Positions 36,146 to 59,918 of a stretch of DNA of 64,000 nucleotides are shown here, piece after piece (the first letter of the stretch is position 1; each line of letters opens with the position of its first letter). Below the pieces are notes generated by a model, which was not told the DNA's origin, did no database searches, and saw nothing but the letters and a program-made list of their open reading frames with translations. The stretch comes from Naegleria gruberi. Taxonomy: Eukaryota. Location: the NCBI GenBank assembly GCA_000004985.1, contig GG738862.1. The stretch is one strand, 5' to 3'. Made by a program: the position numbers and the translations under genes.

Positions 36146-37432
36146 ATGACTTTAAATCCATCGACGTCTACATTTGAATTATCAGTGAAGATTGAACCAC
36201 ACAATGCACCACTTCATCAATTCAACAATAACAATAACAACAATAAAGAAACAACAAATAATTACTTTTCGGAAAGAAAAAAACGAAAATACAAGATTAA
36301 TACGAAATGTGGAAGTATTGAATTTGACATTGAAAGAATATTAACTTTTCTAGTCATGTTTGTGGTTGTTGCTTCTCTTCTTGGTTTGGCTATAATGAGT
36401 GGATTTGGTTTCATTCGAAGTTATAAAGAATTAAGTGTTTACTATTATGGTGGTAAATCAACAGGTTATTCTATTGAATTATCAACATATATGAGAATAG
36501 TATTATCTTCTGATATAATAATTAATGACAGATGGCTTTTAAAAATCAATTCAACTTTTGAGAATTGGTTGTATGCTTCTGAATGGGCAATTTTTCATTC
36601 TTTCTATGTTGATTATTATGAAATTCAATTACCACAAATAGTTAAAGACATTCAGAAAGAATATGAACACTTGTACAATTCACTACTATTACAAAATATT
36701 AACAAGACAAGTCAATTTCAATATTTTCAAAATGAATTTGTGAAAAGTGTTGAAAGTTTCAATGTGGATTATCTTTTGAGTGCTTATAGATATAGTCTAG
36801 CTATTAATGAAAGAGAATCAAGTTATATTGTCATTACTTCTATAATTGGAACTATTGTTTGTGCCTTGATATTACTAATTATACTTCCAACTGGTTTTAT
36901 TGCTACTTTTGGAAGAAATAACAAATTATTGGAAAAATTACAAAAAGTCAATGCAAAGGAGGTTTTGAAAACTATAAATGATCCTTATTTGAACGATCCA
37001 TTTCGGAAATTCTGCAAAGAAAATCAAAAACTTAATTACTTTCTATTTTTGGAAAAATCATTACTATATTCAGAATATTGTGAAGAAATATTTAATTTAA
37101 ATTCAATTGAAAATTACTTGAATGATAGTAGTACCAATTCTATAGAAACTAGAATTGATGAATTTGAATCTAAAAAATGTGAAATTATCTTTGAAATCAA
37201 AACTGAATTTCTAAATTCGAAAGGTGAATATTTTCTTGGTGAAAAACAAATTGGCGGGAAGAAAGAAATTCAAAAAGTGAAATTGGAATTCAAATCCAAT
37301 CCAATGAATTTATCTGATAATTTATTAGATGAAATTGAATCGAATATTTCAATTTGTTTAATTTCAACACTCAAATCATTTCAATCAAATCTTAAAAATA
37401 AGAAATTCATCTCAACCAAGTCGTTACAATAA
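36146..37432 (+). CDS. receptor-like two-transmembrane protein with a C-terminal RGS-like domain (family member 3)
   Basis: Same architecture. The ectodomain carries 'DRWLLKINSTF', shared with members 2 and 4. The cytoplasmic tail has roughly 130-nt blocks that are near-identical to member 1 at the nucleotide level. Confidence 0.55.
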   Translation: MTLNPSTSTFELSVKIEPHNAPLHQFNNNNNNNKETTNNYFSERKKRKYKINTKCGSIEFDIERILTFLVMFVVVASLLGLAIMSGFGFIRSYKELSVYYYGGKSTGYSIELSTYMRIVLSSDIIINDRWLLKINSTFENWLYASEWAIFHSFYVDYYEIQLPQIVKDIQKEYEHLYNSLLLQNINKTSQFQYFQNEFVKSVESFNVDYLLSAYRYSLAINERESSYIVITSIIGTIVCALILLIILPTGFIATFGRNNKLLEKLQKVNAKEVLKTINDPYLNDPFRKFCKENQKLNYFLFLEKSLLYSEYCEEIFNLNSIENYLNDSSTNSIETRIDEFESKKCEIIFEIKTEFLNSKGEYFLGEKQIGGKKEIQKVKLEFKSNPMNLSDNLLDEIESNISICLISTLKSFQSNLKNKKFISTKSLQ

Positions 37433-37547
37433 ACAACATTTGTTTCAATTATTTAGTTGTAAGTATTGTCGACAGCGCTATCCATTTCCAGAATATTTTA
37501 AATTTCCGTTTTAGGAAGATATTCATCCGAAACCTGTCATAAAAAAA

Positions 37548-38831
37548 ATGTCCACACCAACAACAAGCTCTTCAACATTGGAGTTGTTAGAAGAGGATTC
37601 TTCTCCCTCTCGGAAACAACAAGATCAATTCAATAATAATAACAAAAACAACATTATTTTGCCATCATCAACATATAAACTTTCGAATAGAAAGAAACGA
37701 AAGTTTATCATTAATACTAAATGTGGCAGTATTGAAATGAGCATTGAACGAATATTAACATTCCTAATCATGTTCATTGCCATATTTTCACTTTTCATTC
37801 TTTCAATTATTACAATCTATGCATTCTTCTTGAAAAATTACAATGAACATTCAATTTACAAAACATCACATCAAACTATTCAACATTCGAATAGATTATC
37901 TACTTATTTTCATATCATTTTATCAACTAATATTACAATAGATGATAGATGGTTATTAAAAATTAATTCTACTTTTATGGAATTTAAAGAAAAAGCATTA
38001 TTTGGAGCACTTTATTATTTTGAAATTTCCAATAATGGAAATGAATATATTAGACCAATGGAAATTGTTAAAATTGAACAAGATTATAATTATTTATATG
38101 AATTATTAACTAAAAATAAGAAAGATTTGGAATTTTATAAAAATCAATTTATTTATGGAATTGAAAATTATGTACAAAATTATTTGGAAATTGCTTTGAA
38201 GAAAAGTGATAAAAATGATGAAATAGAAACTATTTTTATGTATTCTACTGCTATAATTGGAACTATAATATGTGGATTGACTTTATTAATTATTATTCCA
38301 ACTAGTTGTATTGCCTTAATTGGAAATAATAACAAAATTATGAAAAAATTACAAAAAGTGAATGCAAAAGAAGTTTTAAATTTTATTTCAGATTCTTATT
38401 TGAATATTTCCTTTAAAGAATATTGTAAAAATCATCAACAATTAAAATACTTTCTATTTTTGGAAAAATCATTACTATATTCAGAATATTGTGAAGAAAT
38501 ATTTAATTTAAATTCAATAGATAATTACATCACTAATTCCAATACTAACCTGAGTGAAATACAAATAGATAAATTTGAATCTAAAAAATGTGAAGTTGTC
38601 TTTGAAATTATTACAGAATTTCTAAATTCGAAAGGTGAATATTTTCTTGGTGAGAAACAAATTGGCGGGAAGAAATTAATTGAAAAAGTTAATAAGGAAT
38701 TCAAATACAATCCAATGAATTTATCTGAAAATTTATTTAATATTATTGAATCAAATATTTCAATTCATTTATTTCCAACACTTAAATTATTTAAATCTAA
38801 TAGAAAGACTATTCCTAATCTAACAAATTGA
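37548..38831 (+). CDS. receptor-like two-transmembrane protein with a C-terminal RGS-like domain (family member 4)
   Basis: Same architecture, with 'DDRWLLKINSTF' in the ectodomain and 'FKEYCKNHQQLKYFLFLEKSLLYSEYCEEIFNLNSI' in the tail. Confidence 0.55.
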   Translation: MSTPTTSSSTLELLEEDSSPSRKQQDQFNNNNKNNIILPSSTYKLSNRKKRKFIINTKCGSIEMSIERILTFLIMFIAIFSLFILSIITIYAFFLKNYNEHSIYKTSHQTIQHSNRLSTYFHIILSTNITIDDRWLLKINSTFMEFKEKALFGALYYFEISNNGNEYIRPMEIVKIEQDYNYLYELLTKNKKDLEFYKNQFIYGIENYVQNYLEIALKKSDKNDEIETIFMYSTAIIGTIICGLTLLIIIPTSCIALIGNNNKIMKKLQKVNAKEVLNFISDSYLNISFKEYCKNHQQLKYFLFLEKSLLYSEYCEEIFNLNSIDNYITNSNTNLSEIQIDKFESKKCEVVFEIITEFLNSKGEYFLGEKQIGGKKLIEKVNKEFKYNPMNLSENLFNIIESNISIHLFPTLKLFKSNRKTIPNLTN

Positions 38832-39186
38832 AAATATTAGTATTCTAATTAAGAAGACTCTTCTGAAGTTGATCACTAATTTAGTTTGATAGATCTTTAA
38901 TTTAACAATCAAATAGTATTTAGTCAACTCAATTACTCTTTAAGAATTTAAAATTCAACTATGAAAATTGAAAGTACATAATCATGATTACAATCCTCGT
39001 AGTTCGTAGTGTAAAACATTTTCAAGACACTTGTCTCTTTTATTCTTCAATTGTAACAACCATTAGCTATATAGAGATAGTTTCCATACCAAGGAAAAAT
39101 GACATGTTGACATTTGGTATCTTTTATAGACATTTGACCACCACATAAGCCAACAATCACGATTGCGATATCTTTCACTAAAAAAA

Positions 39187-40716
39187 ATGTCTCTTCAACA
39201 TGCTCTTCAACAACAAAGCAATTCAATTACCTTTGTTGAAATGGAGAATCTTCTCATCACCTTGAATATCGATAGTACAAATCAACTAGAACAACAAATA
39301 ACATCAACAATATTATCTTCCTTACCTTCTGCACATTTAAATAATTCAACTTCTATAACAACAACAACAGGTAGTTCACAACAGTTGTCAACTTTTAAAT
39401 ATTTTGATCAGAGTACAAGTAGTAGTACTTTGATAAAAATTATTGAGGAAGGAAATAATGATGGTGTTAATATTAATAAGAATATATCAATTCAACGAAA
39501 GAAGGAATTTATTATAAAAACTAAATGTGGTCAATTGGAATTGACATTTGACAGAATATTGGCATTTATTATCATGTTATTGGCAATTATAACATTATTA
39601 ATATTAGTAATATTATCTACTGGTACTATTTTCTTGCAAACTAATACAGAAAACAAAACTTTTAATAACTTTACAAAAGTTACAAAAAATTTAATAAGAT
39701 TGAATGCATATTATACTATTTTAATGGAAAGTAAATTAGATGAATTATTGATTGAGGAAATTAATGAAACAATGATTGATGTTAAAGTGGATTACAACAA
39801 GTTATTAATTGATATTCCTTATTATGGAAATACTGCTCAATATAGTAGGTCCAGAGTTGTTACAATTTTAAATAGAAATTTTAAATCTTTGGAGAGTAAT
39901 CATAATTATATTTATAATGAGATTATAGTAAATAATTATACAGATACTAAATTTTTCTATTCGAATTATCATCCTAGTTTAGTCAATTTCACACAAAGTT
40001 TAGACCTAGCTCTGATACTTGCTGATAAGGCTGCAAGTAATGAAGATGAATATATGAATATAAATGCAATCATTGATTTGTCTCTAGTTGGATTTGTATT
40101 GATAATCATAATTCCATCAATTGGTCTAATTTTAATCAAGTCAGCTGTCAATGACAACAAATTTATGGAAAAATTACAAAAAGCAGATGCAAGAATAGTG
40201 ATTGAAACAATTGCAGATCCTAGATATCAATCATATTTTAAAGAATTATGTAAAGAACATAATCAATTATCAAAATATCTATTTATGGAAAGAGTTCAAT
40301 TATTTAATGAAATATGTCAAAGAGTTTTCACATTACAAGATGAAATTGAAGAAGGAGTTAATCTAGAAATGAGTAAGAAAATGTTAATTGAAATTGATGA
40401 TTTAGAAGCAAAGAAATTTGAATTATCATTTGAATTAATTACAGAATATCTTGATTTAGGTAGTGATACCTTTTTAGGATTTAGATTAGTAGGTCGTAAA
40501 AGATCCATTGAGAAAATCAAAAAGATATTCGACACACAATCAATGAATTTGCCTGAAAATCTCTTCAAGAATATTCAATCAAATGTTTCATTGAATTTAC
40601 TTCCAATTTACAAATTATTTAAATCCAATCAACAACGAAAGAGAAATGAAAGAAAAATTAAAATTATTGCAAAACAACAAGACAAACATGAAATTATGAA
40701 AAATAAACAACAGTAA
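39187..40716 (+). CDS. receptor-like two-transmembrane protein with a divergent C-terminal RGS-like domain (family member 5). The likely start is the ATG at 39187.
   Basis: The sequence opens 'MSLQHALQQQSNSITFVEMENLL...', passes TM1, a roughly 190-aa ectodomain and TM2, then reads 'FKELCKEHNQLSKYLFMERVQLFNEICQRV...ELITEYLDLGSDTFLGF'. Only members 5 and 6 share the ectodomain motif 'YSNYHPSLVNFTQSLDLALILADKAASNEDEYMN'. I prefer the ATG in the AAAAAAAATGTC context over the upstream non-ATG ORF start at 39163. Confidence 0.5.
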   Translation: MSLQHALQQQSNSITFVEMENLLITLNIDSTNQLEQQITSTILSSLPSAHLNNSTSITTTTGSSQQLSTFKYFDQSTSSSTLIKIIEEGNNDGVNINKNISIQRKKEFIIKTKCGQLELTFDRILAFIIMLLAIITLLILVILSTGTIFLQTNTENKTFNNFTKVTKNLIRLNAYYTILMESKLDELLIEEINETMIDVKVDYNKLLIDIPYYGNTAQYSRSRVVTILNRNFKSLESNHNYIYNEIIVNNYTDTKFFYSNYHPSLVNFTQSLDLALILADKAASNEDEYMNINAIIDLSLVGFVLIIIIPSIGLILIKSAVNDNKFMEKLQKADARIVIETIADPRYQSYFKELCKEHNQLSKYLFMERVQLFNEICQRVFTLQDEIEEGVNLEMSKKMLIEIDDLEAKKFELSFELITEYLDLGSDTFLGFRLVGRKRSIEKIKKIFDTQSMNLPENLFKNIQSNVSLNLLPIYKLFKSNQQRKRNERKIKIIAKQQDKHEIMKNKQQ

Positions 40717-41045
40717 CTTTTCCATTATTCGACTTTTCACATTATTTCCTTTTTGAGCTCATGGTCAACTGGTTCTTTTATTAACAATTATTCCATTAAG
40801 AGAACAAATTATCAGCAATCACACAATAAGAATGTTACTTTACACAACTTACAATATCCACTAGAATCGGAATTAGAATCTTTTATTTATGCGATTCTTA
40901 TTTGAGCCAGCAAATCATTTTGGAATCTTTCACTTTACGAACTCTATTTTACCTTTTTAGATGTTTTTGGAATGTTAAACTACTATTTTCAATTTGCAAT
41001 ATTGACATCCATGAATCTTTCACACAGTCAATTAAACACAAAAAA

Positions 41046-42527
41046 ATGTCTCTTGACGAAACTGTTCGAAACAATGAAATTAATCTTGTTGAAATGGAGA
41101 ATGTTTTATATTCAATGAAGATTGATACTGAACAACAATTTTATGAATCAACTTCAACTCAACAAGATGCCTTCAATTCTTCATCTAATAATAATAACAA
41201 TATTGATAATACACAGTTGACTAGTAATAATAAACCTTTACAACAAACTAGTAATACAATAGTTAAAATTGAAGAAGGTCAACAAGAATATAACACTAGT
41301 GTAACAATACCACCTAAAATTCCAAAACAAGATCAACAATATATTATAAATACCAAATATGGACAATTACAATTATCATGTGATAGAATAATATCAGTAT
41401 TAATCATGTTATTAGCAATTATTACATTATTTATGATGGCATTTCTATCTGCATGTACTTTAATATTAGAAACTAATACTGAAAATAAAACATTTAATCA
41501 CACAACTCAATTATCAAAGAATTTAATAAGATTAAATACTTATTACAAAATTATTATGGAAAGTGAAATTGTAGAGTTGTTAGTTGAGGAAATTAATGAA
41601 ACAATGATTGATGTTACAAGTGATTATCATCTATTATTAAGAGATGTACCTTATACTGGTAACACTGATAAATATAGTAGGGCAAGTGTAATTACTAGAA
41701 TTGGAGATTATTTTAACATATTGGAAAGTAATCATTTTCATCTTTATAATCAAGTTATTGAAAATAATTATACAGATACTAAATTTTTCTATTCGAATTA
41801 TCATCCAAGCCTAGTCAATTTCACACAAAGTTTAGACCTAGCTCTGATACTTGCTGATAAAGCTGCAAGTAATGAAGACGAATATATGAATTTAAATGCA
41901 ATTATTGATCTTGTATTATCTGTATTTGTATTAATTATTATAATTCCATCAACTGCTATATTACTTATCAAGTCAGCTGTCAATGACAACAAGTTTTTAG
42001 AAAAATTAAAAAAAGCAGATGCAAGAGTAGTGATTGAAACAATTGCAGACATAAGATTACAGAATGAATTTAAAGAATTATGTAAAGAACATAATCAATT
42101 ATCAAAATATCTATTTATGGAAAGAGTTCAATCATTCAATGAAATATGTCAAAGAGTTTTCGCATTACAAGATGAAATTGAAGAAGGAGTTAATCTAGAA
42201 ATGAGTAAGAAAATGTTAATTGAAATCGATCAATTGGAATCTAAAAAATTTGAATTATCATTTGAATTAATTACAGAATATCTTGATTTAGGTAGTGATA
42301 CCTTTTTAGGATATCCTTTAATAGGTGGAAAGAAAGCAGCGGAGAAAATCAAAAAGATATTCGATACTCAATCTGTTCACTTACCTGAAAACTTGTTTAA
42401 AAATGTTCAATCAAATGTTTCTTTGAATTTACTTCCAATTTACAAATTATGTAAATCCAATCAACAACGAAAGAGAAATCAACGAATGAAATTAATGAAG
42501 AAACAACAATTAGCAACGACACAATAA
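41046..42527 (+). CDS. receptor-like two-transmembrane protein with a divergent C-terminal RGS-like domain (family member 6). The likely start is the ATG at 41046.
   Basis: A close paralog of member 5: 'MSLDETVRNNEINLVEMENVLYS...', with the same tail motifs. The ORF extends upstream to 40902, but AAAAAAATGTCTCTT at 41046 matches the start context of the other family members. Confidence 0.5.
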   Translation: MSLDETVRNNEINLVEMENVLYSMKIDTEQQFYESTSTQQDAFNSSSNNNNNIDNTQLTSNNKPLQQTSNTIVKIEEGQQEYNTSVTIPPKIPKQDQQYIINTKYGQLQLSCDRIISVLIMLLAIITLFMMAFLSACTLILETNTENKTFNHTTQLSKNLIRLNTYYKIIMESEIVELLVEEINETMIDVTSDYHLLLRDVPYTGNTDKYSRASVITRIGDYFNILESNHFHLYNQVIENNYTDTKFFYSNYHPSLVNFTQSLDLALILADKAASNEDEYMNLNAIIDLVLSVFVLIIIIPSTAILLIKSAVNDNKFLEKLKKADARVVIETIADIRLQNEFKELCKEHNQLSKYLFMERVQSFNEICQRVFALQDEIEEGVNLEMSKKMLIEIDQLESKKFELSFELITEYLDLGSDTFLGYPLIGGKKAAEKIKKIFDTQSVHLPENLFKNVQSNVSLNLLPIYKLCKSNQQRKRNQRMKLMKKQQLATTQ

Positions 42528-48734: not shown

Positions 48735-51698
48735 TTAGACATTTTCTTGATTAACTCCTCTTCCATTATTATCTGTGTTATTATCACCAGCAATTGGACC
48801 ATCATTGGATAATGTAGTACTATTATTAGTTGTATCATTACCAATTCCATATTGTCTTCTCAATGCATCCAAATCAAAAGGTAAAGTTAATTGAATTTGT
48901 AAATTTGGTCTCTTTGCATTTTCTCTTCTCAATTTTTCTAATTCTTCTTCATCAATAATCCACATTTCATCATCATCATAACGTTGACCAAAACATAATA
49001 AATTTGATTTGATAAAATCTAAAGCCTTCATAAAATTATTACCATATTTTGAATTATTAAAATTATTTAAAAATCTACGTTTAGATTCAACCTGTTCAAC
49101 ACGTGCAGTACCAGTTGTTGTATCAAATGGAAGTGGAATTTCCTTAGTTGCTCTATAATTTTCTATATTTGCAATATTTTCATGTTCAATACGGAAAATA
49201 TTCCAAATAAATCTTCTTAAAATTTCCAAAAATACAAACAAGTATAAAATCCATTCCAATGTTTCCTTTTCAATTTTAACAAATGATTTAACAAATAAAA
49301 ATGGTAACCAAACCCATCTTAGTATAATATTACTAAACATGGCCATATAATAATATTGAGGTGAAAATATTAATTTAGATCTTAATCCCCAATATTTAGT
49401 TTTCTTTTCAAATAAACCCATATCAACACGTAAATCCCAATATAATTTTAAACATGTTGAAATAATATTTATAATAATATATATAATACGTAATATTGTA
49501 AATGATCCAATTAATATATTATTAGAATTATCCAATGTTAATTTATCAATAAATGCAATAATAATGACTAAACATGATGAAAAATATTTTAATGCATTTA
49601 ATAAATGCATTTTTTGTCTAGTATCATAATATTTTCTTAAACATTGCATTAATCTAACATGATATGGAATGTAATTTAAAATTGGAATTCCTAAACTTTT
49701 AGTTGAAGAACAAAATAAAGAAATTGTTGAAAATTTTGAAGTTGCAGGATAAATACAACCAATAAATTGTAATTCAAATAAAACATCAGATAAAGAAGTT
49801 AATTGATCTGCAATAAAAAAGTCAGAAAATCTAACTACTGTAAAAGGAGATGCTAACATTCTTAAAATACATTTTAATAACCAATATCTAAATTCAAAAT
49901 TTAAAATTTTAAAAGGATTAATTAAATATAAAATAAAAATAATCCATAATATAATTGGATGCCAATATGCATATTGTCCTATTAATAGAATATTACTTAA
50001 ATAGGAAATTACATTCATCATGTAAATTAATTGACTTGTAAAAATTATATTTAAAATTAATAATGAAATTGATAAAAATTTCCAAGTTGATAAACACATT
50101 AATGGATTTAATCCTAATATGTAAATATAATTAATATTATATTTACTCCAAATTCTAATATTTATACTTATAAAAAATGTTAATAATGTTGGAAATAATA
50201 ATAATCTATATAAAGAAAAACTTTGATCATCATATTCTATATTTTCCTTATTTGTAAATTCATATGTATAAAAATAATAAAATAAATTTATAATTATTAA
50301 TATAAATAAACTTCCTAATAAAATACCACTTGTAAATATATCTTTTAAATTATTTACTTCTAAAATACCAATATCTCCTATTTTTAATTTACTTAATTGT
50401 TCACTTGCTAATTTTATATCATTTTCACAATAATATTCTGCATAATAATAAATTGTATCTTTAATATGTTTATCAATTAAATTAGAATTTTTAAAATATT
50501 GATATTTTATAAATTTTATATTTTCAAATATTTCTGTAAAATTAATATTTCCATATATAGTATCATAATAATTATTATATTATTATTATTTAGAATTATT
50601 ATTATTATTAGAATTATTATTAAAATTATTATTAATAATAATAGGAGTATTAATTGAATTATTTTTAGAATTATAATTAATTGCATCATTTAATTCATTA
50701 AAAGTAAATTTAATTTTTCTTTTTGTAATTTCATTTAATTTTGTTGTAATATGAATTAAAGCATTATAATTAACTAATCTATAATTAAATAATAAATTTA
50801 AATTATAATAATGTTCTTCAATTCCTTCTTTTAATTTTTGTTTTTGATTAAATGTTAAAATTTCTAATTTTGATGATTTACTATCTTTAGAAATTAATGA
50901 TCTTGCATATTTATTATCATTATACATTTCATTAATTTTATTAATTTGTTCTAATAATCTATTATGTTCATCATTAATAGAAATTTCATTTTCTAAATAA
51001 AAATTATTAATCTTATTAATTTCCTTATATAGTAAATATTTAAAATCTTCAATTAAATTATTATTTATATCATTATTATTATTATTATTTCTTCTATTTG
51101 TTAAATTAATAGATGAAGATATAATATTTTTAATATTAAAATCAGAATGTTTAAATTCATCTTTTAAATCATTTAATTTATCAAGTAAATATTTATAATC
51201 TAAATATTTAACTTGCCATTCTGTTACCATATTTGCATAAAATTGTTGTTGTAATGTTTTTTCATCATATGAAGATGATATTATTATAGATTCAGATGAT
51301 TCACTACTACTACTACTATCATCTGATTCTACACTTTCAATACTATTTCTATTTTCATTATCTTCATTAGATCTCAATAATATATTATTAGTATTATTAT
51401 TGCTGTTATTATTATTATTAATAGATTTAAAAGAGTGATGATGATGATGACGGTGATGATCACCATATTCTATTGGATCATCAATATATTTATGATGATG
51501 ATCTAATAATTCTAATTCATCTTCTTGATTTAATGGAATATCTTCTTCTATACGTTCATCATCATCATTAATTGTTGAGGAATGTATCATCATCATTGGT
51601 GGAGGAGGTGTTGAAAAACTTCCTACCCCACTACCAATGGGTGATGAAAATGATGACAAGTTTGGTGGAGTCTTGTTAATTATACTTGTTCTTCTCAT
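48735..51698 (-). CDS. SPX-EXS protein (XPR1/SYG1/PHO1-like phosphate exporter homolog). Two in-frame stop codons (TAATAA at 50583-50588) lie between the SPX and EXS parts.
   Basis: The upstream ORF 50586-51698 has an SPX domain: 'FYANMVTEWQVKYLDYKYLLDKLNDLKDEF', 'DFKYLLYKEINKINNFYLENE...' and '...YNALIHITTKLNEITKRKIKF'. The downstream frame is open without any ATG from 50582 to 50099. It encodes transmembrane helices and the EXS signature 'RFIWNIFRIEHENIANIENYRATKEIPLPF'. Both parts are in the same frame. Confidence 0.7.
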
Positions 51699-51772
51699 AT
51701 TGTAAATACACTTGTTGTTGTTGTTCTATGAGTAGTTTCAATAGGTATTAGATGATAATAATATGATGCTAT

Positions 51773-54133
51773 TTGGATATAGAAATGGATGAATTTATAG
51801 TAAATACAGTTACAGATACTATTGAAAATGTAATAGTATCATTTAAATGTAAAAGTTATTGGTTTATTTCATTTGATGGTGTTGCAACTAAATCTAAAAG
51901 ACTTTTACAAAGAGATAATAGAGCTAAAACTTCACGTAAATCAAATAAACAGTTATTTAATAATAATAATAATAATATAGATGATAATAATAATATAGAT
52001 GATAATATAGATGATAATAATATAGATGATGAACAAGTTGATAAAGAAGATCTCATTGAAGATAAAGAAGATTTCATTGAACAAGATGATAATAATATTA
52101 TTATTATTGAAAAAGAACAAGATGAATTAAATGATGATGAACAAGATGAAAATCCAAAAAAAAGAAAATTAAATGATGATATCAATGAAGAGAATGATAA
52201 TAATATTAATAATAATAATACTACTCCTATAACAAATATATCTAATAATAATACAAATACTAATAATAATAATATAAATAATAATAATAATATAAATATA
52301 GATAATGTAGAATGTAAAAGATCATTAAGTGTAGAAATATCACCTGGTACAAATTTAAGTAAATTAATGTATGAATCAATAACTAAATTAACATACCAAA
52401 TATGTAAAAAATTAAAAATAGATATATATGTATCATCTACTAATAGATCAGGTGAAGGTGAAACTAAAATAATTGAACATTTAAGACAATATTCTAAAAA
52501 TAATACATTACCTAAATCAGTATTAATTATATCACAAGATTCAGATATGATTTTAATACCATTAATTAATTCAGATATTAATTGTTCTTTTTATATTTTA
52601 ATACCAAATTCAATACAACATTTTAAATCTGGTAATTTTATTGATGTTACAAGTTTTAAATTATTTTTATATAATTTTATTTCTAAAAATAAATTTAAAA
52701 AAATAGATAATTCTAATATAAATAGTAATTATTCTATAAATAATTATAAAAATATTCATCAATTATGTTTAGATTTTGTTAGTATTACATTATTAGCAGG
52801 TGGATGTGATTATTTTAGATATTTTCAAAAAGGATTTATAAGAAATTGGAGAAATTATTTTAAATTAATTGAAAATTCATCTAATTTTAATATTTTTGAA
52901 TTAAATATTTTAAATAATTCAGAAATTGAATTTACAATTAATTGTAATAATTTTATATCTGTATTTGGAAGTAGAGTACCATATACACAAATGGAAATGA
53001 AAAGTGATCCAAATAATGCAATTTTATTTTTTAAACAATTATGTGCATGTATTTTACAATTTAAAGGAATAATTCCAATTATGGAATATTTTAATAATCA
53101 TTTAAAAATGATTGATGTTTTACATTTATTTTCTTTAAATAATAATTTTTATGAACAAGTTGAATTTACAAATAATAATAATATTACTAAATTTAGAAAA
53201 GTAATTACAAAAACATTTAAAGATAAAATTAAAATTTTAACAACAATTGAAGAATTAACAGATAAAACAAATTTAACTCCACTTGAAGGTTTAATTTCAA
53301 TGATTAATAATTTAAATTATCATGCATTACCAAATCAAAATTTAATTGAAATTTTTAAACATGAAGAATTATCTTTTATTTTAAATATAAATACAAAAAT
53401 GGAAAAAAAATATTGGACTTTAAATGATCCTTATTTAAAAATTAGAAATTTTATTAATGAATGGAAAATTAAATATTCAAATATTAATGATAATGAAATT
53501 AATAATATTAATACTGGTACTTTATATTTAAAATATAATGATTATAATAATATATTGACTTTTATGGAAGGTAATAGACCATTTATGGAATTTAATAATA
53601 TTGATTTAAATTTAAATTTAAATAATAATTATCATAAATATTTAAATATTTCAAATATAATTACTGCTCCTTCTATTGATCAAATTAATTTATTAAAATT
53701 ATTTGATGAAACTGATCCACATAAAAATTTAACTAAATTAGTTTATAAAAGACAAAGACGTCCTAATAATAATAATAGAAATAGAAATAATAGAAATAAT
53801 AATAATAGAAATAGAAATTATGATAGAAATGATAATTATGATAGAAATAGAAATGATAATAATAGAAGTAGAAATTATGATAGAAATTATGATAGAAATG
53901 ATAATAGAAATACTACTATTGAAGATAAGAATAATGATAAAAGTAGTTATGATAATAGAAGAGATGATAGAGATAATAATTATAGAAATTATGATAGAAA
54001 TTATGATAGAAATAGAAGTTATAATGATAATAGAAATGATAATAGAAATTATAATAATAATAATTATAAAAGAAGAGATAATAGAGGAAATACTTTTTAT
54101 AATGAAAGAAAAGATAATGATAGAAATAAATAA
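51773..54133 (+). CDS. XRN-family 5'-3' exoribonuclease-like protein with an Asn-rich insert and an Arg/Asn/Tyr/Asp-rich C-terminal tail. The N-terminus appears truncated.
   Basis: Conserved XRN motifs are present. 'FISFDGVATKSKRLLQRDNRAK' corresponds to 'IAIDGVAPRAKMNQQRSRRF'. 'SGEGETKIIEHLRQ' corresponds to 'PGEGEHKI'. 'LIISQDSDMILIPLI' corresponds to 'GLDADLIMLGL'. The roughly 60 aa normally upstream, including the 'DMNGIIH' motif, are absent from this ORF. Confidence 0.55.
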   Translation: MDIEMDEFIVNTVTDTIENVIVSFKCKSYWFISFDGVATKSKRLLQRDNRAKTSRKSNKQLFNNNNNNIDDNNNIDDNIDDNNIDDEQVDKEDLIEDKEDFIEQDDNNIIIIEKEQDELNDDEQDENPKKRKLNDDINEENDNNINNNNTTPITNISNNNTNTNNNNINNNNNINIDNVECKRSLSVEISPGTNLSKLMYESITKLTYQICKKLKIDIYVSSTNRSGEGETKIIEHLRQYSKNNTLPKSVLIISQDSDMILIPLINSDINCSFYILIPNSIQHFKSGNFIDVTSFKLFLYNFISKNKFKKIDNSNINSNYSINNYKNIHQLCLDFVSITLLAGGCDYFRYFQKGFIRNWRNYFKLIENSSNFNIFELNILNNSEIEFTINCNNFISVFGSRVPYTQMEMKSDPNNAILFFKQLCACILQFKGIIPIMEYFNNHLKMIDVLHLFSLNNNFYEQVEFTNNNNITKFRKVITKTFKDKIKILTTIEELTDKTNLTPLEGLISMINNLNYHALPNQNLIEIFKHEELSFILNINTKMEKKYWTLNDPYLKIRNFINEWKIKYSNINDNEINNINTGTLYLKYNDYNNILTFMEGNRPFMEFNNIDLNLNLNNNYHKYLNISNIITAPSIDQINLLKLFDETDPHKNLTKLVYKRQRRPNNNNRNRNNRNNNNRNRNYDRNDNYDRNRNDNNRSRNYDRNYDRNDNRNTTIEDKNNDKSSYDNRRDDRDNNYRNYDRNYDRNRSYNDNRNDNRNYNNNNYKRRDNRGNTFYNERKDNDRNK
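53760..54120 (+). repeat. coding low-complexity repeat (RN/YD-rich, 'RNYDRN'-type) at the C-terminus of the XRN-like gene
   Basis: Iterated 'agaaat(agaaat)...tatgatagaaat' units translate to 'NRNRNNRNNNNRNRNYDRNDNYDRNRNDNNRSRNYDRNYDRNDNRN...'. Confidence 0.7.
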
Positions 54134-57353: not shown

Positions 57354-59918
57354 ATGTCATTACACGATGATCAATTATCCTCCTCTATTACAACTCCCCA
57401 ACAAGATGATGATATTAATAATAAAGATATTGTTGATGAATTGAATAAATATGATATTAATAATAATAATATATTTGGTTATAATAAACAAATAAATAAA
57501 AAACAAATTATATATGGATGTGGTGATGGATTTTGGAAGAAACAAACCGATATAATATCAATTACTAAATTAACAAATTTTGATAAAATAGATTATTTAC
57601 AAAATTATATATTAAATGATAAAATAATTAAATTTAAATGTAAAGATCAATTATGTATATTTCTTACTAGTAATGGAAATGTATATAAAATGGGACAATG
57701 TACATTTATAAATAATTGTACAAATATTCCAACATTAATTAATAATTTTAAAAATGATAAAATTATTGATTTTTCNNNNNNNNNNNNNNNNNNNNNNNNN
57801 NNNNNNNNNNNNNNNNNNNNNNNNNNNNNNNNNNNNNNNNNNNNNNNNNNNNNNNNNNNNNNNNNNNNNNNNNNNNNNNNNNNNNNNNNNNNNNNNNNNN
57901 NNNNNNNNNNNNNNNNNNNNNNNNNNNNNNNNNNNNNNNNNNNNNNNNNNNNNNNNNNNNNNNNNNNNNNNNNNNNNNNNNNNNNNNNNNNNNNNNNNNN
58001 NNNNNNNNNNNNNNNNNNNNNNNNNNCTTTTATAGAATATAAAAAAAATGGTAAATATCAAGTTGACTATTTTTATACTTTAAATTTTACAAATATTACT
58101 AAAATAGTAAAAGAATGTAATAAAAATAAAAATATATTTATTAATAATAATAAAATACAAGATATTAAAGATATTCAATGTAATGGTATTAATACTATAA
58201 TTATTTATAATGATAATACAAATATATTATCTCCTTTATTTAATGATTATTATAATCCAATTAAAAATGAAATTATTTTAAATAAAGTTTATAATAATTT
58301 TATTTTTGAAAATGTATATCAAAAATTAATTTTAAATGAATATCAAATTTTATATTTAAATAATAATAATGAATGTAAATTTATTGATTATAATGGTAAT
58401 TTATTTAAAATGGATAATATTATAAATATGGAAAGTGGTACATTTCATAGTTTTTTACAAACTATTGATAATAAATTTTATTCATTTGGATCTAATGAAT
58501 TTGGTGAATTAGGATATAATAAGAAATTTAATGAATTAAAACAAGTTGAATTACCATTTACTATTAAGGAAGGTGATAATGTTCAAATTTGTTGTGGTAA
58601 AAATTTTACTATTTTAATACATGAAACAGATAATGATGAAATATTTAAAATTAATAATTTAATTGTAACTGATAATTTTAATTTTAATTATGAAATTAAT
58701 TCAAATTTTTATTTAAATTTAAATTTATTAAAAAATATTTCCAATGATTTTTATAATTTAATTACAAATAATAATATAATTGAATATTTAAATGAAAATG
58801 ATCAAAAAGCATTATATTATTTAATTAAAAATGCATTAATTAATTTAAATAATTTAACTAATTTAGATGAATTATTTATTAATTATGATAAATTTATAAA
58901 ATTAATTTCCTTTAATGAAATTGAATTAAATTTAGTAACATGTCTATTTATATTAAATGATATAAATGATATTAATAATGAAATTAAATTATTATTATTT
59001 AATGATCTATCAAATAGAATTAATATTGATAATATTATGAATATTTTACAAAAAGTTAATAATTATCTTTCTTTAAATATTTTAAAACAATCTAAAAATA
59101 GTATTTTATTATTATTAGCAAATAAATGTTTAGCATTTATTAAAGAAAATGAAAAATTATTAAAATCAGAAAAATTATTTGAAATTATTAAAGATAAATT
59201 ATTAAATATTAAAAAATCATTTAAACAAATTATTTATAAAATTGATAATATTACTACTATAAATGGAATTGATAATAATATTAAAAATATAAATGAATCA
59301 TTAAAATTATTATATAATAATAATGAAAATAATGATATTAAAATTATAATTGATGAAAATTCAAATGAAATATTATATTTACATAAAAGTATATTATCTA
59401 TTCATAGTCCAGTTTTAAATATTTTATTTAAAAATTTAAATATTAATGAAATTAATTTATATGAATTTATTGAAATGATGATATCAGATGAATGGATAAT
59501 TAATTTATTTAAATATTCAAATAAAATTAATGAAATATTAAAAATAATATTTAAATTATGTTATGGATATAAATTAAATAATTTAAATTTAAATAATTTA
59601 ATTGGTATTTTAATTATTTCACAACAATTAGATATTACATGGTTAATTAAATATACATGTAATTTAATTATTGAAAAATTTAATGAAATTAATGATACTG
59701 AATTTATTTTATTACTAAATTTAGTATCAATTTCACAAAATAATAATAATTGTAAAGAATTTGTTGAATATTTTAAAATATTTTGTTCAAATAATTTATC
59801 ATTTGATTATTTACAAAAAATACAATCAGTTTGTAAAGATAATCAATCATGTGATAATTTTATTAAAATTATTATTGATTATTATTTAAGAGTACATACT
59901 ATAAATAGAAAATATTAA
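57354..59918 (+). CDS. RCC1-repeat + BTB/POZ-domain protein (RCBTB-like). It contains an assembly gap.
   Basis: The N-terminal part has RCC1-like blades ('IIYGCGDGFW', 'FGSNEFGELGYN', 'VQICCGKNFTILI'). The C-terminal part has a BTB domain ('DIKIIIDENSNEILYLHKSILSIHSPVLNILFKN...INLYEFIEMM'). An N-run at 57776-58026 lies inside the CDS. Confidence 0.55.
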   Translation: MSLHDDQLSSSITTPQQDDDINNKDIVDELNKYDINNNNIFGYNKQINKKQIIYGCGDGFWKKQTDIISITKLTNFDKIDYLQNYILNDKIIKFKCKDQLCIFLTSNGNVYKMGQCTFINNCTNIPTLINNFKNDKIIDFXXXXXXXXXXXXXXXXXXXXXXXXXXXXXXXXXXXXXXXXXXXXXXXXXXXXXXXXXXXXXXXXXXXXXXXXXXXXXXXXXXXXXFIEYKKNGKYQVDYFYTLNFTNITKIVKECNKNKNIFINNNKIQDIKDIQCNGINTIIIYNDNTNILSPLFNDYYNPIKNEIILNKVYNNFIFENVYQKLILNEYQILYLNNNNECKFIDYNGNLFKMDNIINMESGTFHSFLQTIDNKFYSFGSNEFGELGYNKKFNELKQVELPFTIKEGDNVQICCGKNFTILIHETDNDEIFKINNLIVTDNFNFNYEINSNFYLNLNLLKNISNDFYNLITNNNIIEYLNENDQKALYYLIKNALINLNNLTNLDELFINYDKFIKLISFNEIELNLVTCLFILNDINDINNEIKLLLFNDLSNRINIDNIMNILQKVNNYLSLNILKQSKNSILLLLANKCLAFIKENEKLLKSEKLFEIIKDKLLNIKKSFKQIIYKIDNITTINGIDNNIKNINESLKLLYNNNENNDIKIIIDENSNEILYLHKSILSIHSPVLNILFKNLNINEINLYEFIEMMISDEWIINLFKYSNKINEILKIIFKLCYGYKLNNLNLNNLIGILIISQQLDITWLIKYTCNLIIEKFNEINDTEFILLLNLVSISQNNNNCKEFVEYFKIFCSNNLSFDYLQKIQSVCKDNQSCDNFIKIIIDYYLRVHTINRKY
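57776..58026. other. assembly gap (251 N)
   Basis: A run of N characters in the sequence. Confidence 1.

What the first reader, a model, noticed from the sequence alone, without database searches (positions are those of the whole stretch)
51699..51990. XRN-like exonuclease appears to lack the N-terminal catalytic segment
The ORF starts only about 25 residues before the conserved 'ISFDGVATKSKRLLQRDNRAK' block. In XRN1/XRN2 about 85 residues precede this block. They include the 'DMNGIIH' motif, which carries one of the seven catalytic acidic residues. The GEGE and DxD motifs are retained. Only 74 nt lie between this start and the divergently transcribed SPX gene. A sequence 'ATGAGTAGTTTCAATAG|GTATTA' at 51729-51751 could be a tiny first exon, but it would not supply the missing motif. 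Either this is a divergent or inactive XRN paralog, perhaps a regulatory one like decapping-scavenger XRN relatives, or the 5' exon lies elsewhere.
Basis: partly seen in the sequence, partly recalled or inferred. Interest (0 to 1): 0.5.

Follow-up and report, generated by a model that had tools for sequence, protein, structure and literature searches.

The report
N-terminally truncated XRN-like nuclease gene
This Naegleria gruberi gene is a divergent, amoeba-specific relative of the XRN RNA-degrading enzymes whose first ~135 codons, present in three related amoebae, are missing here, so the protein probably cannot degrade RNA on its own; this is a lineage-specific truncation, not a new kind of enzyme.

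Summary
The window is Naegleria gruberi. ORF 51785-54133(+) hits Pfam XRN_N only from profile position 66 of 241. It starts 27 residues before ISFDGVATKSKR. It keeps the equivalents of D86, E176/E178, D206/D208 and D291. It lacks the MGVP helix, the first catalytic Asp and the stacking His.

It belongs to a rare XRN-like family found only in Heterolobosea, with 5 hits among 1.84 billion representative proteins. Orthologues in N. fowleri, N. lovaniensis and Willaertia all start MG(V/I)P and carry (I/F)ID(I/A)N..(I/L)H. So the missing N-terminus is specific to N. gruberi, not a family trait.

In all three Naegleria species the gene sits head-to-head with an SPX-EXS gene. N. gruberi has about 800 nt less DNA between the two genes. 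No N-terminal exon exists anywhere in the 64 kb. The proposed tiny exon is out of frame.

The remaining ORF is intact and shows no faster change than its N. fowleri orthologue. That fits a recent or compensated 5' deletion better than an old pseudo-enzyme. An assembly error or a separately encoded N-terminal module cannot be excluded. Canonical XRN1/2 homologues of N. gruberi are listed in the literature. Interest is modest.

The parts
51785..54133 (+). XRN-like ORF, 782 aa from the first ATG. It is the orthologue of N. fowleri FDP41_010358 but lacks the first ~135 residues.
   Evidence: stop-free by chance P~1e-42
51785..51865 (+). First 27 residues (MDEFIVNTVTDTIENVIVSFKCKSYWF). They align to the helix and strand just before the second catalytic Asp (human XRN1 about residues 57-82, N. 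fowleri 137-164).
51866..51928 (+). ISFDGVATKSKRLLQRDNRAK block. D31 corresponds to XRN1 D86. K38, Q42 and R46 correspond to the 5'-phosphate pocket residues K93, Q97 and R101. The R100 position is Asn.
51929..52315 (+). Asn/Asp/Glu-rich low-complexity insert inside the nuclease domain. It is present but not conserved in the orthologues.
52451..52462 (+). GEGE motif (E224 and E226 correspond to XRN1 E176 and E178).
52538..52546 (+). DSD motif (D252 and D254 correspond to XRN1 D206 and D208).
52799..52816 (+). GGCDYF. It aligns with GNDY(V/L)P of the related sequences P0003 and P0005. D342 is taken as the equivalent of the seventh XRN acidic residue by analogy with the XRN GNDFLP motif, from prior knowledge; the PDB alignments do not reach this position.
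52754..53530 (+). Conserved C-terminal module specific to this family (residues 324-582). Apart from its first few residues it has no Pfam match.
53747..54130 (+). Arg/Asn/Asp/Tyr-rich repetitive tail, not shared with the orthologues.
51699..51784 (.). 86-nt AT-rich spacer between the SPX ORF start and the XRN-like ATG. The corresponding intergenic spacer is 580 nt in N. fowleri.
51728..51751 (+). It cannot be spliced in frame.
   Evidence: (sequence read directly)
50586..51698 (-). Divergently oriented SPX half of the SPX-EXS gene. It is the conserved head-to-head neighbour of the XRN-like gene in three Naegleria species.
48735..50537 (-). EXS half of the same gene, 100% identical to a N. gruberi predicted protein. 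This identifies the organism.

Best explanation
The ORF is the N. gruberi orthologue of an uncharacterised XRN-like nuclease family found only in Heterolobosea. In N. fowleri, N. lovaniensis and Willaertia the protein has a full XRN catalytic core. It starts with an MG(V/I)P helix, then a strand with the first catalytic Asp and the base-stacking His ((I/F)ID(I/A)N..(I/L)H). The Naegleria proteins then have a 35-65 residue low-complexity linker; Willaertia has only about 5 residues there. The rest of the domain follows. At the N. gruberi locus the DNA for that first module and linker (about 135 codons) is gone, together with most of the spacer to the SPX-EXS gene. This looks like a lineage-specific 5' deletion ending in the variable linker. 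Translation can now start only at the ATG at 51785, right at the next helix. What is shown: orthology, conserved gene order, the missing DNA, the retained residues and the intact ORF. What is inferred: the product lacks one of the seven metal-binding acidic residues, the stacking His, the N-terminal helix and the strand that carries that Asp, so it should not work alone as a processive 5'-3' exoribonuclease. All other catalytic residues are kept and its rate of change is not raised. The loss is therefore most likely recent, or compensated in some way, rather than marking an old non-catalytic paralogue.
For: Organism: the EXS ORF is 100% identical to a N. gruberi protein. Family: an exhaustive HMMER search found 5 hits in 1.84e9 representatives. 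The best were N. fowleri at 3e-80 and Willaertia at 2e-14. The family profile hits XRN1/XRN2 structures at 1e-19 to 5e-12, and its first positions align to XRN1 residues 1-41. Orthologue N-termini. Gene order: SPX-EXS(-)/XRN-like(+) in N. fowleri L001 and N. lovaniensis L002. Colinear DNA anchors are 1210 nt apart in N. fowleri and 545 nt apart in N. gruberi. No N-terminal coding sequence in the window. ORF integrity: P(no stop)~1e-42 in the ORF frame, against 66 and 239 stops in the other two + frames. Invariant residues are retained. Tajima relative-rate counts are 33 (N. gruberi) against 39 (N. fowleri), with Willaertia as outgroup. On the role of the seven acidic residues, the His/Trp stack and the N-terminal helix: deleting just 4 N-terminal residues lowers XRN activity (PMC9512700).
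Against: There is no transcript or read-level evidence, so a collapsed assembly, a deletion on one haplotype, or an N-terminal module encoded on another scaffold cannot be ruled out. Full retention of six catalytic residues with no rate increase is unexpected for a dead enzyme. The neighbouring SPX-EXS gene also carries an odd lesion in this assembly, three in-frame TAA codons. This could point to local sequence-quality problems. The AlphaFold model was too poor (pLDDT 40) to judge whether the truncated domain can fold.
Confidence: 0.55

Rival explanations
1. The N-terminal module still exists in N. gruberi but not at this place. Either the draft assembly collapsed or deleted about 0.7-0.8 kb here (or captured a deletion haplotype), or the gene split at the flexible linker and the roughly 105-residue N-terminal module is encoded elsewhere and joins the rest as a second subunit.
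For: All six remaining catalytic residues and the family-invariant blocks are intact, and the rate of change is not raised. This is what an enzyme that is still active would show. The break falls exactly in a low-complexity linker that differs even between N. fowleri and N. lovaniensis, a natural place for a split. The region is rich in short repeats and has extreme composition (GC3 2.9%). The adjacent gene also shows an unexpected triple stop. The window is a draft sequence with a gap 6 kb away.
Against: There is no N-run or other sign of a join at the locus. Gene order on both sides of the junction matches the other Naegleria species, so a chimeric join is unlikely. Both flanking ORFs read cleanly up to the spacer. 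No N-terminal module lies within 51 kb upstream or 10 kb downstream. To my knowledge (not checked here), XRN enzymes made of two separately encoded parts have not been described.
Confidence: 0.25
2. An old, stably kept non-catalytic (regulatory or RNA-binding) XRN paralogue.
For: The ORF is long and intact. Three of the four 5'-phosphate pocket residues are kept, so it could still bind 5'-monophosphate RNA ends without cutting them. Canonical XRN1/2 homologues cover the essential functions.
Against: The truncation is confined to N. gruberi, and its orthologues look like complete enzymes. Pseudo-enzymes normally lose catalytic residues over time, yet here D31, E224, E226, D252, D254 and D342 are all kept. 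There is no lineage-specific acceleration.
Confidence: 0.15
3. A missed upstream exon within this window supplies the N-terminus. This includes the reader's tiny exon at about 51728-51744.
For: A short ATG-initiated ORF followed by GT lies in the spacer.
Against: The only downstream AG (51781-82) gives a 38-nt intron and a frame that runs into TGA. The exon would add 5 residues and no catalytic motif. Profile and tblastn searches of all six frames of the 64 kb find nothing. Any upstream exon would need an intron containing the whole 3-kb SPX-EXS gene. The N. fowleri orthologue has no introns.
Confidence: 0.03

Closest known systems
N. fowleri FDP41_010358 (A0A6A5BYS7, 'Xrn1 N-terminal domain-containing protein'), its N. 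lovaniensis orthologue, and Willaertia magna ABK040_013189/001947
   Same: These are orthologues. They share 46% identity over 451 aligned columns and identical blocks such as RSLSVEISPGTNLSK, SGEGETKIIEHLR and LLAGGCDYF. They share the same family-specific C-terminal module. The Naegleria ones share the same head-to-head SPX-EXS neighbour.
   Different: They have about 135 extra N-terminal residues (about 65 in Willaertia), with MG(V/I)P, the first catalytic Asp and the stacking His. The N. gruberi copy has none of this, and it has a different repetitive C-terminal tail. None of these proteins has been studied experimentally as far as the searched literature shows.
XRN1/Pacman and XRN2/Rat1 5'-3' exoribonucleases (e.g. 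PDB 9e70, 3pie, 2y35, 3fqd, 5fir)
   Same: The conserved region 1 nuclease fold is shared at the sequence level (Pfam XRN_N; family profile E=1e-19 to 1e-12). Shared residues are the Asp of (F/V)DGVA, GEGE(H/T)K, D(S/A)D, and K, Q and R of the 5'-phosphate pocket. The Asp of G(N/C)D(F/Y) is matched by analogy only.
   Different: The match is very distant: a single-sequence search does not reach XRN1/2. No conserved region 2 or other XRN middle or C-terminal domains are detected. A large low-complexity insert sits inside the domain. In N. gruberi, XRN1 residues about 1-56 have no counterpart.
Divergent kinetoplastid XRN paralogues (XRNB, XRNC, XRNE; PMC3854532, PMC5862402)
   Same: They are extra, highly diverged XRN-family genes in another Discoba lineage, present alongside canonical XRN1/2-type enzymes.
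   Different: No kinetoplastid protein was recovered by the exhaustive search with the core region, so there is no evidence of orthology. Their sequences were not compared directly.
XRN-like exonuclease genes of giant viruses (GVMAG contigs in IMG/VR)
   Same: They share 19-37% identity over the catalytic core only.
   Different: They show no match to the family-specific C-terminal module and are no closer than cellular XRNs. There is no sign that the Naegleria gene is viral.

Membership tests
XRN 5'-3' exoribonuclease superfamily (Pfam XRN_N, PF03159) | Significant match to the XRN_N profile | tested here: met
   55 bits against a cut-off of 22.9, E=1e-14, but only profile positions 66-233 of 241. 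The family profile hits XRN1/2 structures at 1e-19 to 5e-12.
XRN 5'-3' exoribonuclease superfamily | All seven conserved acidic residues that bind two Mg2+ ions (XRN1 D35, D86, E176, E178, D206, D208, D291/292) | tested here: not met
   Six of seven are present (D31, E224, E226, D252, D254, D342). The D35 equivalent has no counterpart because the segment is missing. The orthologues have all seven.
XRN 5'-3' exoribonuclease superfamily | N-terminal MGVP helix and the stacking His (XRN1 H41) | tested here: not met
   Absent from the ORF and from all six frames of the window. Present in N. fowleri, N. lovaniensis and Willaertia.
XRN 5'-3' exoribonuclease superfamily | Basic 5'-phosphate pocket (K93, Q97, R100, R101) | tested here: inconclusive
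   K38, Q42 and R46 are kept. The R100 position is Asn here and His, Asn or Thr in the orthologues.
XRN 5'-3' exoribonuclease superfamily | Conserved region 2 with the stacking Trp, and the overall XRN core fold | tested here: inconclusive
   No Pfam or PDB sequence match beyond conserved region 1. The AlphaFold model has pLDDT 40 and is unusable.
XRN 5'-3' exoribonuclease superfamily | 5'-monophosphate-dependent processive exonuclease activity | not testable with these tools
   Needs a biochemical assay.
Heterolobosean XRN-like family (N. fowleri FDP41_010358 group) | Colinear similarity across the catalytic core and the family-specific C-terminal module | tested here: met
   3e-80 to N. fowleri; 46% identity over 451 columns; about 95 columns invariant in all four sequences.
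Heterolobosean XRN-like family (N. fowleri FDP41_010358 group) | Same genomic position (head-to-head with SPX-EXS) within Naegleria | tested here: met
   This pairing is not seen in Willaertia.

The most novel reading that the evidence does not exclude
The truncated N. gruberi protein is still a working nuclease. Either the roughly 105-residue N-terminal module (helix, first catalytic Asp, stacking His) is now encoded by a separate gene and assembles with it, which would be a naturally split XRN enzyme. Or the six-residue core acts without that module, with a changed and non-processive activity. The conserved head-to-head pairing with a phosphate-sensing SPX-EXS gene might then point to a role in phosphate salvage from RNA.
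Probability: 0.1. Interest if true: 0.55.

Novelty: new variant of a known kind. Interest (0 to 1): 0.3.

Why it matters
The finding identifies an unstudied third type of XRN-like nuclease restricted to Naegleria and its relatives, including the pathogen N. fowleri. It also shows that the model species N. gruberi carries a copy without the N-terminal catalytic module. If the truncation is real, N. gruberi is a natural deletion variant. It could be used to ask what that module (helix, first metal-binding Asp, stacking His) contributes to XRN-type enzymes, and whether the gene is dispensable. It is also a caution against transferring function between Naegleria species. In practice the N. gruberi gene seems to have no protein model in the databases searched, so it is also an annotation gap.

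Tried and rejected
1. Tiny first exon (ATG at 51728). Rejected because the intron would be 38 nt and the frame hits TGA.
2. N-terminus encoded antisense to the SPX N-terminal extension. The + frame at 51431-51568 reads 'LDHQYIYDDDLIILIH', which looks vaguely like the Asp/His motif. Rejected because the HMM score is -1.8, E~990.
3. The tblastn hit at 38142-38219 (E=0.29). It lies inside one of four tandem paralogous membrane-protein genes and is a chance match.
4. A 31-nt, 90% DNA match between N. fowleri intergenic DNA and the N. gruberi SPX His-rich run. It is a GAT-repeat coincidence and is not in an ORF in N. fowleri.
5. Independent N. gruberi contigs or transcripts by exact-protein look-up. 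None are on record for the XRN-like ORF (two start choices), the SPX ORF or the annotated EXS protein.
6. The word-index protein search with the core region returned nothing, not even N. fowleri, so that index is lossy.
7. AlphaFold2 on an 8-sequence alignment gave pLDDT 40. No fold search was run on it.
8. dN/dS. N. gruberi against N. fowleri gives about 0.5. Synonymous sites are saturated or compositionally constrained (GC3 3%), so the value is not informative.
9. The metagenome scan gave one distant, end-of-contig TARA hit. The viral scan gave only generic giant-virus XRN cores.
10. Weak Exuperantia match (E=0.003). It was not reproduced with the family profile.

Full report
**What is there**

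The window is AT-rich (28% GC) with one N-run at 57776-58026. It comes from Naegleria gruberi: the EXS ORF at 48735-50099(-) is 100% identical to a 'predicted protein [Naegleria gruberi]'.

The finding concerns the ORF that is open from 51767. It has a TTG at 51773, its first ATG at 51785, and a stop ending at 54133, giving 782 aa from the ATG. Pfam XRN_N matches at E=1e-14 (55 bits, cut-off 22.9), but only profile positions 66-233 of 241 are covered. 'ISFDGVATKSKRLLQRDNRAK' starts 27 residues after the ATG. GEGE (52451-52462) and DSD (52538-52546) are present.

The oppositely oriented SPX ORF starts at 51698. That leaves 74 nt to the TTG and 86 nt to the ATG.

**What it belongs to**

A single-sequence search against PDB sequences barely reaches XRN2 (E=0.06). 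An exhaustive HMMER search with the core (residues 178-582) against 1.84 billion representative proteins returned only five hits:

- N. fowleri FDP41_010358 (3e-80)
- two Willaertia magna proteins
- one anonymous Logan protein
- one metagenomic '5'-3' exonuclease'

So this is not XRN1 or XRN2. It is a rare, divergent XRN-like family seen so far only in Heterolobosea.

A profile of four family members hits XRN1/XRN2 structures at 1e-19 to 5e-12. Its first positions align to XRN1 residues 1-41. According to table S6 of PMC5862402, N. gruberi has canonical homologues elsewhere: XP_002671758 and XP_002679108 (Xrn1-type) and XP_002679109 (Rat1-type). The literature search found no study of the divergent family.

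**The key comparison**

The N. fowleri protein (1138 aa) begins MGVPSFMSQLNS..., carries FDCIYIDINPIIH, and then has a Ser/Lys/Thr-rich linker. Only at residue 137 does it reach WDDKIVRGVIKSLEEVMTSF..HWFISFDGVATKSKR. This aligns with MDEFIVNTVTDTIENVIVSF..YWFISFDGVATKSKR at the very start of the N. gruberi ORF.

N. lovaniensis has the same N-terminus with a longer linker. Willaertia has MGIPRF... and FIDANQLLH. The missing N-terminus is therefore specific to N. gruberi and is not a property of the family.

**Gene order**

In N. fowleri the gene has no introns. It lies head-to-head with a single 1143-aa SPX-EXS gene, 580 nt away. N. lovaniensis has the same arrangement. The genes further out differ from those in N. 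gruberi, and Willaertia has other neighbours.

DNA anchors on either side (the SPX core and the ISFDGV region) are 1210 nt apart in N. fowleri and 545 nt apart in N. gruberi. The distance from the N. fowleri SPX start codon to the 'DDKIV' helix is 989 nt. In N. gruberi the corresponding distance is 86 nt from the ORF's first ATG, or about 195 nt from an internal 'MIH' that resembles the N. fowleri start.

So N. gruberi lacks about 0.7-0.8 kb here. That is enough to account for the roughly 400 nt of N-terminal coding sequence plus much of the intergenic DNA.

**Is the N-terminus elsewhere in the window?**

No.

- tblastn with the N. fowleri and yeast N-termini found only chance hits.
- An HMM built from seven XRN N-termini and searched with all filters off against every stop-to-stop fragment in six frames gave a best E of 0.34, inside the P450 gene. 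Nothing near the locus scored.
- The upstream + strand genes are a dynactin-p62-like gene and a P450.
After the GT at 51745, the only acceptor before the ORF is AG at 51781-82. This gives a 38-nt intron and a junction frame that reads ...AGA AAT GGA TGA.

**State of the remaining gene**

The 782-codon frame has no stop. Composition alone predicts a stop every 9 codons or so (P~1e-42). The other two + frames have 66 and 239 stops.

All family-invariant residues are kept, including D31, E224, E226, D252, D254 and D342. K38, Q42 and R46 of the 5'-phosphate pocket are also kept.

With Willaertia as outgroup, N. gruberi has 33 unique changes and N. fowleri 39. There is thus no sign of relaxed constraint in N. 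gruberi. dN/dS values are not informative because synonymous sites are nearly all A/T (GC3 2.9%).

**Mechanistic reading**

In XRN enzymes, seven acidic residues hold two Mg2+ ions. A His and a Trp stack on the first bases of the substrate. The N-terminal helix moves during translocation, and removing just its first four residues lowers activity (PMC9512700).

The N. gruberi product lacks that helix, the first Asp and the His. I infer that it cannot act alone as a processive 5'-3' exoribonuclease. Its orthologues have all seven acidic residues and the His, and are probably active.

The rest of the catalytic site is untouched. The most economical reading is therefore a fairly recent 5' deletion ending in the variable linker (confidence about 0.55). 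The rivals are:

- an assembly or haplotype artefact, or an N-terminal module encoded elsewhere (about 0.25)
- an old non-catalytic paralogue (about 0.15)
- a missed exon within the window (about 0.03)

One caution applies. In this assembly the neighbouring SPX-EXS gene also carries an unexpected lesion. Three consecutive in-frame TAA codons at 50580-50588 sit in an (AAT)n run. They are followed by 146 conserved codons with no ATG, and no in-frame GT-AG intron could remove the stops. This suggests either real degenerative change in a region under extreme AT pressure or local sequence errors. The second possibility keeps the artefact rival alive.

**Verdict**

It is wrong in treating the truncation as a family feature and in the tiny-exon idea. 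In novelty terms this is a truncated variant within an uncharacterised branch of a well-known enzyme family. Interest is modest (0.3). It would rise only if the truncated protein proves to be functional or to be one part of a split enzyme.

Noticed in passing
window 50580-50588 (-), context 50099-50760: The SPX and EXS halves of the neighbouring gene are in the same frame but separated by three consecutive TAA codons inside an (AAT)n run. After the stops come 146 conserved codons, including transmembrane segments, with no ATG until 50099. No in-frame GT-AG intron can remove the stops. N. fowleri has one uninterrupted 1143-aa ORF, and a related Naegleria protein (P0020) reads through the same region.
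   Followed up: partly
whole window (ORF-by-ORF GC3): There is a strong compositional gradient. GC3 of ORFs falls from about 25% (1-25 kb) to about 17% (26-44 kb) and to 3-10% (46-64 kb). The XRN-like ORF is the extreme, with GC3 2.9% and overall GC 17%.
   Followed up: no
window 48735-54133; L001 5989-13417; L002 4653-11446: The head-to-head pairing of SPX-EXS (a phosphate sensor/exporter type protein) with the XRN-like nuclease gene is kept in three Naegleria species, although the flanking genes differ. It is not seen in Willaertia. Co-regulation is possible but untested.
   Followed up: partly
window 36146-42527 (+): A tandem array of four paralogous genes (428, 427, 517 and 541 aa; 27-67% pairwise identity). 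They have a predicted membrane segment and a conserved C-terminal region, and no Pfam match.
   Followed up: partly
window 53198-53524 (+), residues 472-580 of the XRN-like protein: Weak single-sequence similarity to the exonuclease-like domain of Drosophila Exuperantia (PDB 5l80, E=0.003). It was not recovered with the family profile, so it is probably chance.
   Followed up: partly
L002 4653-8088 (-): The N. lovaniensis orthologue is annotated as two genes (277 aa and 759 aa). The reading frame changes twice inside low-complexity runs, through indel errors or short introns.
   Followed up: partly
Willaertia proteins P0004 and P0009 (contig JBEGDK010000167.1): A 313-aa protein consisting only of the family's C-terminal module is annotated three genes away from the full-length Willaertia gene. 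It may be a partial duplicate or a fragmentary gene model.
   Followed up: no
window 57776-58026, inside ORF 57354-59918 (+): The only assembly gap in the window (251 N) interrupts a long ORF without breaking its frame.
   Followed up: no
window 51597-51698 (-): The N. gruberi SPX ORF extends 34-36 codons upstream of the 'MIH' that resembles the N. fowleri and N. lovaniensis start. This stretch is noticeably more GC-rich than the 86-nt spacer, so it is probably coding. If it is, the shared spacer is only 86 nt, the shortest divergent gap among the large ORFs of the window (the others are roughly 170-1580 nt).
   Followed up: partly
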